Assembly: GCF_050320075.1 (NCBI RefSeq)
Contig: NZ_CP190018.1
From: Escherichia coli
Lineage (GTDB): Bacteria; Pseudomonadota; Gammaproteobacteria; Enterobacterales; Enterobacteriaceae
Reading direction: 5' to 3' (one strand)
DNA length: 64,000 bases
The notes below the pieces were generated by a model, which saw only the letters and a list, made by a program, of their open reading frames with translations, did no database searches and had not been told where the DNA came from. A program made the translations under genes and the position numbers. This document shows, piece by piece, positions 25,902 through 51,772 of the stretch. Each line of letters starts with the position of its first letter. The stretch's first letter is position 1.

Positions 25902-25996
25902 TGGCGGAAGATCACAGGAGTCGAACCTGCCCGGGACCGCTGGCGGCCCCAACTGGATTTGAAGTCCAGCCGCCTCACCGGAGACGACGATCTTCC
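25902..25996 (-). tRNA. selC: tRNA-Sec (selenocysteine tRNA), intact, 95 nt
   Basis: Reverse complement matches my recollection of E. coli selC from GGAAGATCGTCGTCTCC... to ...GATCTTCCGCCA. Confidence 0.95.
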
Positions 25997-50437: not shown

Positions 50438-50727
50438 GGTTATCTCCCTAAAAATCTGTCTGGCAGGGTAGCGATTTGTACGCATTGTCACGATTGAGAT
50501 TTTTTAAGGTGAGAGGAAATTGATAATTTTTAGTTATGTGAAATCGTTGTTTTCTGTAGCGTAGATGCATTCTTCTGACTTCTTGTCTGAGAAAATACAT
50601 AAGAAAAAGTAGGTTAAAACTGAGGGGTGGAAAAGAAAGGTGCAATGTTAGCCATTGTGTTCACCGCACATGGACTTTGGCTTACGCATCGGGTATCTCA
50701 ATCAACAAAAAGAGTTTTTAGTTTCGG

Positions 50728-51552
50728 CTATTTTTTCTCTGTAATTTTTACACTGTTTTCCAACTGCTTGATGCTGATCTGCGGGGTCGGCAACTCCTCA
50801 GGCATGGTTCCGCCAAGTTCCTGAATGGTTTGCCTCACCTTGCGACCCACGTCAAAGTGTGTGGTGTTAGCTTGCTGTTTTGAATTCACGCCATCCCGCT
50901 TGAGTTTTTCTTCTGTTTGGGTAGCTCGAAAGAGATTAGCCGCCAGTTCTGTTGAACCCATATGATCCAGGATCTTCTGACTCTTTTTCAGCCCCTTCCG
51001 CTGATGGATGGCTTTCTGATCTAATCCACCATACAGCCCCCGGTAACCATGATTCTGAAATATGGCGAAATCGATAGCTGTCGCTACCCCAGCTTGCTGC
51101 GCTGCCTCAACTAATTGTTTGTTATGTTCTTTCAACTCATTTCTCAGAAAAAGACGCTTTTCGTCTTCACGAAGTTGCCTGAAAGCTTCATCGTCAGCCA
51201 GCTCCTGTCGTCGGGTCTGGATAGCAAAATAAGTTTGCCCTGCCGCAATAACCGGTTTCGCAGGGTCGCCGTTTTGTACTACCAGGTAACAGGCATAGCG
51301 GGAGAGTACGATGTCTTTTAATGCTCTTTTGGCATTTGAGCCAATTTTGACCATATCGAGGATCTCCTCGAAATGGTCATCAATTGTGTGACCACTATTC
51401 AGACAAGCTTCTTTGGCGCGCGTTAATACAGGTATAAAGTGACGATACTCTGAATAACCCAGTAGTTTCCCAAGTTGTCTTGCTGACCATTGTTCTGCTC
51501 CGTTTGCATTAATCAGCTTTATCTCTTCAAAAGGTTGATGATGTTCGTTCAT
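50728..51552 (-). CDS. dinD: DNA damage-inducible protein D
   Basis: Recognisable DinD sequence; LexA box upstream. Start could be 51552 (MNEHH) or 51564 (MEWAM). Confidence 0.85.
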   Translation of the reverse strand: MNEHHQPFEEIKLINANGAEQWSARQLGKLLGYSEYRHFIPVLTRAKEACLNSGHTIDDHFEEILDMVKIGSNAKRALKDIVLSRYACYLVVQNGDPAKPVIAAGQTYFAIQTRRQELADDEAFRQLREDEKRLFLRNELKEHNKQLVEAAQQAGVATAIDFAIFQNHGYRGLYGGLDQKAIHQRKGLKKSQKILDHMGSTELAANLFRATQTEEKLKRDGVNSKQQANTTHFDVGRKVRQTIQELGGTMPEELPTPQISIKQLENSVKITEKK

Positions 51553-51597
51553 TGCCCACTCCATGTGATATCGATTGCAAGGAAAGTAAGTCTACAA

Positions 51598-51613
51598 CTG
51601 TGTTTATATACAG
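51598..51613. promoter_or_regulatory. LexA (SOS) operator CTGTGTTTATATACAG upstream of dinD
   Basis: CTG-N10-CAG with AT-rich core, about 35-45 bp upstream of the dinD start. Confidence 0.8.
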
Positions 51614-51772
51614 TTGTGAGTATCTCACGTTCTCACTGCGCTGGGCAAAAAAACATCGCAAAATCTGGAGCAGGCACGCAAAACAGAATTGAATGTTGCG
51701 GGGAAGAAAAATGCCGCTCTGTTTTAGTGGCGGCATTTGTGAAGGCGGAAAAGTAAGAATTGGCGTTACGAG

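What the first reader, a model, noticed from the sequence alone, without database searches (positions are those of the whole stretch)
51598..51613. LexA operator at dinD
CTGTGTTTATATACAG fits the CTG-N10-CAG SOS box just upstream of dinD, confirming SOS control of this gene in this strain.
Basis: partly seen in the sequence, partly recalled or inferred. Interest (0 to 1): 0.2.

Follow-up and report, generated by a model that had tools for sequence, protein, structure and literature searches.

The report
Known LexA operator upstream of dinD
This is the well-known binding site for the DNA-damage repressor LexA in front of the E. coli gene dinD, here in a common natural variant that differs by one base from the laboratory strain K-12, so it is ordinary.

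Summary
The 16-mer CTGTGTTTATATACAG is at window 51598-51613 as described. It lies in the yicC-dinD intergenic region, 43 nt upstream of the ATG of an intact dinD gene on the minus strand. It is the positional orthologue of the K-12 dinD SOS box. In gene orientation the 20-mer is AACTGTATATAAACACAGTT, against K-12's AACTGTATATAAATACAGTT, one substitution. A weight matrix built from 17 published LexA boxes, with dinD left out, gives 22.5-22.8 bits. The next-best position in the window scores 11.2, and the best of 200 random 64-kb sequences scores 18.3. The T-to-C change costs about 2 bits, and the site still scores above 11-12 of the 17 matrix operators, depending on the strand scored. The variant is a common allele: it is exact in 1,049 of 4,704 complete E. 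coli genomes, and the K-12 form is exact in 3,608. LexA-dependent induction of dinD is published for K-12. For this allele it is a strong prediction, not a confirmation. Side result: only 4 of 80 dinD orthologues in other species have such a box, and syntenic yicC-dinD loci in Pseudocitrobacter, Providencia and Morganella have none. Novelty: already known. Interest is low.

The parts
51596..51615 (-). LexA operator (SOS box), 20-mer AACTGTATATAAACACAGTT in gene orientation. The 16-bp core CTGT-N8-ACAG is at 51598-51613.
   Evidence: 22.5-22.8 bits; unique in the window. (aligns with the K-12 dinD box, one substitution).
51594..51617 (.). Extended perfect palindrome ACAACTGT-N8-ACAGTTGT. The arms are 8 bp in this allele and 6 bp in K-12, because the 2 nt flanking the box on the gene side differ.
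   Evidence: (I3).
51619..51627 (-). Candidate extended -10 element TGaGATACT (inferred, not mapped). It lies immediately upstream of the box and would place the transcription start inside the box.
   Evidence: best relaxed sigma-70 match. Invariant between K-12 and the window. The strict scan found nothing.
51643..51648 (-). Candidate -35 element TTGCCC, with an 18-nt spacer to the candidate -10 (inferred).
   Evidence: invariant.
51559..51562 (-). Shine-Dalgarno-like GGAG, 6 nt before the dinD ATG.
   Evidence: Read from the sequence.
50728..51552 (-). dinD coding sequence (274 aa, intact), encoding DNA damage-inducible protein D with a Bro-N domain.
51704..51738 (-). Intrinsic-terminator-like hairpin (AAAUGCCGC / GCGGCAUUU) with a U-tract, just after yicC. 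It separates yicC transcription from dinD.
   Evidence: MFE -12.2 kcal/mol, z = -3.15; I2.
51773..52636 (-). yicC, the upstream neighbour in the same orientation (YicC/YloC family endoribonuclease).

Best explanation
The site is the LexA operator of the dinD promoter. In undamaged cells a LexA dimer binds the palindrome CTGT-N8-ACAG. The site sits next to or over the dinD core promoter and start site, so bound LexA blocks RNA polymerase. After DNA damage, RecA filaments on single-stranded DNA trigger LexA self-cleavage, the operator is vacated, and dinD is transcribed from its own promoter. A terminator after yicC insulates dinD from upstream transcription. DinD is reported to help remove RecA filaments. 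What is shown here: the sequence, its statistical uniqueness, its positional orthology to the K-12 box, an intact downstream gene, and how common the allele is. What is taken from the literature: LexA dependence and damage induction of K-12 dinD. What is inferred: that LexA binds this one-base variant with somewhat lower but still strong affinity (about 1.5- to 4.5-fold weaker if heterology-index units are read as ln K), and the exact promoter geometry.
For: The sequence is present. It scores 22.5-22.8 bits, against 11.2 for the next-best position in the window and 18.3 for the best of 200 random 64-kb sequences; the 17 proven operators range from 13.6 to 27.9 bits. It aligns with the K-12 dinD box with a single T-to-C change. 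C at position 14 occurs in 4 of the 17 training operators, and the identical CACAG end occurs in lexA, yebG and polB (sequence list). The gene is dinD and is intact, and synteny matches K-12. K-12 dinD is induced 9.8-fold by AZT with 12-fold lexA3 dependence and a heterology index of 2.2 (PMC11228462). LexA dependence was confirmed by RT-qPCR in lexA(Def) and lexA3 strains, and the box is listed in Tables 4 and 7 of PMC3009722. The variant box with its conserved flank is exact in 1,049 of 4,704 E. coli genomes, including type strain ATCC 11775, so it is a maintained allele. There is a terminator-like hairpin after yicC. The candidate -35 and extended -10 directly upstream of the box are invariant between the two alleles. 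DinD's role in RecA filament removal comes from PMC4849656, which cites Uranga et al. 2011.
Against: There are no binding or expression data for this allele. The substitution lowers the match by about 2 bits; the heterology index rises from 2.95 to 3.32 (oriented matrix) or from 3.73 to 5.24 (symmetrised matrix). The strict promoter scan found no sigma-70 promoter, and I could not retrieve a mapped dinD transcription start, so the operator-promoter overlap is inferred. LexA control is not a general property of dinD genes: only 4 of 80 orthologous loci in other species have a box, and syntenic yicC-dinD loci in Pseudocitrobacter, Providencia and Morganella have none. Conservation across species therefore does not back the assignment. 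lexA itself lies outside the window.
Confidence: 0.93

Rival explanations
1. The operator is functional but tuned differently. The T-to-C change, possibly with the altered flank, weakens LexA binding enough to raise basal dinD expression or make induction earlier than in K-12. That would be a natural regulatory polymorphism in SOS timing. This refines the main explanation and is not an alternative identity.
For: The PWM score drops by about 2 bits and the heterology index rises by 0.4-1.5 units. The mirror position (position 7, the A of CTGTA) is A in 14 of the 17 training sites (list), so the CTGTG half-site is the rarer form. The allele is frequent, 1,049 of 4,704 genomes.
Against: Position 14 is weakly constrained in proven operators (A7, T6, C4). 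The variant still scores above 11-12 of the 17 proven sites. Nothing was measured.
Confidence: 0.25
2. The palindrome is a chance AT-rich inverted repeat with no regulatory role in this strain.
For: CTG-N10-CAG occurs 29 times in the window and CTGT-N8-ACAG twice. Most dinD orthologues elsewhere have no box.
Against: The score is 11 bits above any other position in the window and above all 200 random sequences. The site is the positional orthologue of an experimentally supported operator. One of the two box variants is exact in 4,657 of the 4,704 E. coli genomes that carry the locus.
Confidence: 0.01
3. The 8-bp-arm palindrome acts mainly as an RNA hairpin in the dinD 5' leader, or as the site of another DNA-binding protein, and not as a LexA site.
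For: This allele has a perfect 8+8 inverted repeat with an 8-nt loop.
Against: The extra 2 bp of pairing are absent in the K-12 allele, carried by about 77% of genomes. The stem is AU-rich, with no U-tract after it. If the best promoter candidate is right, transcription starts inside the 5' arm. The sequence fits the LexA matrix specifically.
Confidence: 0.02

Closest known systems
E. coli K-12 dinD (pcsA) LexA box, AACTGTATATAAATACAGTT
   Same: Same locus, orientation and distance to the ATG, and 19 of 20 box positions. The downstream gene product is 98% identical. The upstream candidate promoter hexamers are identical.
   Different: There is a T-to-C change at position 14. The 2 nt next to the box on the gene side are GT instead of AC, which lengthens the palindrome to 8-bp arms, and there are several more substitutions in the leader. 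The score is about 2 bits lower.
Other E. coli SOS operators with a CTGTG half-site (lexA box 1, yebG, polB)
   Same: They have the same CACAG end and are LexA-regulated (PMC3009722 Table 4).
   Different: They are at different genes with different promoter geometry, and their overall scores are mostly lower than that of the dinD variant.
LexA boxes upstream of dinD homologues in Citrobacter werkmanii, Cupriavidus alkaliphilus, Paraburkholderia madseniana and Burkholderia sp.
   Same: Each has a strong CTGT-N8-ACAG-type box (18.7-25.2 bits) within 25-90 nt of a dinD-family gene.
   Different: The box sequences, spacings and genomic contexts differ. The Citrobacter copy follows ibpA/ibpB and appears split into two ORFs. 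These are not positional orthologues, which suggests independent acquisition.

Membership tests
Gammaproteobacterial LexA operator (SOS box) | 16-bp palindromic core CTGT-N8-ACAG (minimal form CTG-N10-CAG) | tested here: met
   CTGTGTTTATATACAG at 51598-51613.
Gammaproteobacterial LexA operator (SOS box) | Overall match to the 20-bp consensus TACTG(TA)5CAGTA at the level of proven operators | tested here: met
   22.5-22.8 bits, against 13.6-27.9 for 17 proven sites. Heterology index 3.3 (oriented matrix), within the stronger half. No random 64-kb sequence reached it.
Gammaproteobacterial LexA operator (SOS box) | Located in the promoter region, overlapping or adjoining the -35, -10 or transcription start of the regulated gene | tested here: inconclusive
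   The site is intergenic, 43 nt upstream of the dinD ATG. The best candidate extended -10 ends 3 nt upstream of the box. The strict scan found no promoter, and no mapped start site was retrievable.
Gammaproteobacterial LexA operator (SOS box) | Positional orthology to an experimentally supported operator | tested here: met
   Aligns with the K-12 dinD box, which is listed as an SOS box upstream of LexA-dependent dinD.
Gammaproteobacterial LexA operator (SOS box) | Physical binding by LexA | not testable with these tools
   Requires a gel-shift, SPR or ChIP experiment on this allele.
Gammaproteobacterial LexA operator (SOS box) | LexA- and RecA-dependent induction of the downstream gene by DNA damage | not testable with these tools
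   Published for the K-12 allele only (PMC11228462; PMC3009722).
Gammaproteobacterial LexA operator (SOS box) | The genome encodes LexA | not tested
   lexA lies outside the 64-kb window. The organism is E. coli, where lexA is core by established knowledge.
DinD (DNA damage-inducible protein D, NF008573) | Full-length match above the curated cutoff of the equivalog model | tested here: met
   485.7 bits against a cutoff of 242, covering residues 1-274. The Bro-N domain is present. 268/274 identical to K-12 DinD.
DinD (DNA damage-inducible protein D, NF008573) | Chromosomal context yicC-dinD-yicG, as in K-12 | tested here: met

The most novel reading that the evidence does not exclude
LexA control of dinD is a recent, lineage-specific acquisition and not a property of the gene family. 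Syntenic yicC-dinD loci in Pseudocitrobacter, Providencia and Morganella, and most other orthologues, lack any box. Within E. coli the operator exists as two major alleles (T or C at position 14, with different flanks) that could set different induction thresholds for a RecA-filament inhibitor in different lineages.
Probability: 0.3. Interest if true: 0.25.

Novelty: already known. Interest (0 to 1): 0.08.

Why it matters
It matters little. The dinD SOS box is a textbook operator, and dinD fusions are classic SOS reporters. The added value is practical. The CTG-N10-CAG criterion alone does not discriminate. The box in this strain is a common one-base variant of the K-12 sequence, so reporter constructs or affinity values taken from K-12 may not transfer exactly. 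The name 'DNA damage-inducible protein D', which automatic annotation applies across many phyla, does not imply LexA control outside a few lineages.

Tried and rejected
1. Simple consensus patterns were rejected as evidence. CTG-N10-CAG gives 29 hits and CTGT-N8-ACAG gives 2, with 11 of 100 shuffles matching that.
2. The strict sigma-70 promoter and terminator scan of 51400-51850 found nothing. A relaxed scan gave only candidates. The yicC terminator was missed by the scan because its loop is 12 nt, and it was recovered by folding.
3. Searches for a mapped dinD transcription start or LexA ChIP data led nowhere. Uranga et al. 2011 (PMC3190988) and PMC4288677 (the id I recalled for Thomason et al. 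2015) are not held. The tiling-array 'transcript start' for dinD in PMC3009722 coincides with the annotated gene start and is uninformative.
4. A -10 element inside the box (TATATA or TATAAA) was considered, but no acceptable -35 lies at 15-19 nt (read from the sequence).
5. Cross-species conservation was tried as support for function. It does not support it (4 of 80) and is reported as a caveat and a side finding. The gamma-type matrix applies only to Gamma- and Betaproteobacteria, so absence in other phyla says nothing.
6. Rfam found no RNA family in the yicC-dinD region.

Full report
**Observation.** The only sizeable ORF next to it is on the minus strand, at 50728..51564. In gene orientation the 20-mer is AACTGTATATAAACACAGTT, at 51615..51596.

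CTG-N10-CAG occurs 29 times in the window. The tighter CTGT-N8-ACAG occurs twice, and 11 of 100 shuffles give at least two matches.

I therefore built a symmetrised weight matrix from 17 published LexA boxes upstream of UV-induced E. coli genes (PMC3009722 Table 4), leaving dinD out to avoid circularity. Results:
- The site scores 22.5-22.8 bits.
- The next-best position in the 64-kb window scores 11.2 bits.
- The best score in 200 Markov-1 random 64-kb sequences had mean 12.1 and maximum 18.3.
- The 17 training operators range from 13.6 to 27.9 bits.

The site is real, is unique in the window, and scores above 11-12 of the 17 proven operators, depending on the strand scored.

**What is the gene?**
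- The 274-aa product of 50728..51552 matches the NCBIfam equivalog 'DNA damage-inducible protein D' at 486 bits, against a cutoff of 242.
- It has a Bro-N domain.
- It is 268/274 identical to K-12 DinD, with no gaps.
- RefSeq annotates it as dinD, with exactly these coordinates, in a genome whose sequence is identical to the window here.
- The gene order ligB, yicG, dinD, yicC, rph, pyrE is that of K-12, reversed.
- A GGAG lies 6 nt before the ATG at 51552. The in-frame ATG four codons upstream has no such element.

**Comparison with the reference operator.** The yicC-dinD intergenic regions of the window and of MG1655 are 97% identical. The box aligns column for column with the K-12 dinD box AACTGTATATAAATACAGTT, which PMC3009722 lists as an SOS box.

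There is one difference inside the box: T-to-C at position 14. On the plus strand this makes one half-site CTGTG instead of CTGTA. The two bases flanking the box on the gene side also differ (GT instead of AC), which extends the perfect palindrome to 8-bp arms.

The substitution costs about 2 bits. The heterology index rises from 2.95 to 3.32 with an oriented matrix, and from 3.73 to 5.24 with a symmetrised one. Position 14 is weakly constrained in the proven sites (A7, T6, C4), and lexA box 1, yebG and polB carry the same CACAG end (lists). If heterology-index units are read as ln K, following Berg and von Hippel, LexA affinity would fall 1.5- to 4.5-fold. That is an inference.

**How common is the variant?** A 39-mer made of the window's box plus its conserved upstream flank is exact in 1,049 of the 4,704 complete E. 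coli genomes that carry the locus. These include the type strain ATCC 11775. A 39-mer spanning the K-12 box, offset by 2 nt, is exact in 3,608. About 47 genomes have neither form. So this is one of two major alleles and not a private mutation. About 713 of 5,426 genomes show no match to the dinD region at all.

**Anatomy and mechanism.** Immediately after yicC there is a terminator-like hairpin, AAAUGCCGC / GCGGCAUUU followed by a U-tract (51738..51704, minus strand). Its predicted free energy is -12.2 kcal/mol, with z = -3.15. dinD should therefore have its own promoter.

The strict promoter scan found none. The best relaxed candidate is -35 TTGCCC (51648..51643), an 18-nt spacer, and an extended -10 TGaGATACT (51627..51619). 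Both elements are invariant between the two alleles, whereas the sequence just downstream of the box varies. This geometry would put the transcription start inside the box, so a bound LexA dimer would occlude RNA polymerase. That is the usual way SOS operators work, by established knowledge. I could not retrieve a mapped start site, so this step is inferred.

**Published evidence for the K-12 allele.**
- dinD is induced 9.8-fold by AZT, and that expression is 12-fold lower in lexA3; its box has a heterology index of 2.2 (PMC11228462 Table 1).
- LexA dependence was confirmed by RT-qPCR in lexA(Def) and lexA3 strains (PMC3009722).
- DinD is cited as one of the proteins that remove RecA filaments (PMC4849656, citing Uranga et al. 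2011).

**Related loci elsewhere.** A scan of one genome per species returned 80 loci encoding DinD relatives at 63-80% identity. They come from strikingly diverse phyla.

With the same matrix, only four loci have a strong box within 250 nt upstream: Cupriavidus alkaliphilus (25.2 bits), Citrobacter werkmanii (23.1), Paraburkholderia madseniana (20.3) and Burkholderia sp. (18.7). None of 240 control segments reaches 12 bits. Extending the scan to the whole 1.5-kb flanks added no box upstream of dinD; the only new hit was a marginal 14.1-bit match downstream of dinD in L062.

Loci that share yicC upstream of dinD have no box: Pseudocitrobacter (which also has yicG downstream), Providencia and Morganella. 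The Citrobacter copy lies after ibpA/ibpB, looks split into two ORFs, and has an unrelated box sequence.

LexA control therefore appears to be lineage-specific within the family. Cross-species conservation cannot be used to support function here. The matrix applies only to Gamma- and Betaproteobacteria, so absence in other phyla is uninformative.

**Verdict.** 'Confirming SOS control in this strain' overstates what sequence can show; it is a strong prediction (about 0.93). The feature is already known and interest is low. The only modest additions are the common T14C allele and the lineage-restricted presence of the box among dinD orthologues.

Noticed in passing
loci L002-L081 (dinD orthologues); window 50728-51552: DinD relatives at 63-80% amino-acid identity occur in very distant phyla (Chlamydiae, Bacteroidia, Chlorobi, Spirochaeta, Synergistaceae, Campylobacterales, Lentisphaerae), a patchy distribution that looks like horizontal transfer. 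Only 4 of 80 loci have a gamma-type LexA box upstream, so the family name 'DNA damage-inducible' does not generalise.
   Followed up: partly
L014 1360-1530; L029; L006: In Pseudocitrobacter, Providencia and Morganella, dinD sits directly after yicC as in E. coli but has no LexA box. In Pseudocitrobacter, yicC and yicG are 93% and 89% identical to E. coli's while DinD is only 74% identical, so dinD is much more diverged than its neighbours.
   Followed up: partly
window 50600-51800: About 713 of 5,426 complete E. coli genomes have no megablast match to the dinD region, so dinD is not universal in the species. I did not examine what occupies the site in those genomes.
   Followed up: no
window 50761-50776: The 16-nt stretch CAACTGCTTGATGCTG, reported as complementarity between tisAB RNA and the dinD 3' end (PMC2577331), is retained exactly in this allele even though the adjacent codon differs (Val to Ile).
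   Followed up: partly
window 1-25996: The tRNA-Sec gene selC is at 25906-25996 (minus strand), with an island to its left. RefSeq annotates matching genomes there with an inverse autotransporter adhesin (iatC / EaeX-Air), eilA, a type III translocon subunit, a SIR2 family protein and a primase-helicase. Only 27 E. coli genomes carry at least 80% of the first 25 kb; strain SMS-3-5 matches at 97%.
   Followed up: partly
window 18924-19200: Rfam finds a C4 antisense RNA (18924-19011), its a1/b1 target (19148-19200) and isrK (19110-19187), all on the minus strand. This is a P1/P7-type immunity module inside the selC island.
   Followed up: no
window 61098-61136: A JUMPstart (ops-containing) element lies on the plus strand. 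Its position relative to pyrE and dut fits the leader of the waa (rfa) LPS core operon.
   Followed up: no
window 79-94 and 661-676: The identical 16-mer CTGCCAGCATCAACAG occurs twice, 582 nt apart. This probably reflects tandem Ig-like repeats in the inverse autotransporter adhesin gene.
   Followed up: no
L012 1492-2265: The Citrobacter werkmanii dinD homologue, downstream of ibpA/ibpB and carrying a strong LexA box, is split into two ORFs of 104 and 141 aa. It may be a pseudogene or an assembly error.
   Followed up: no
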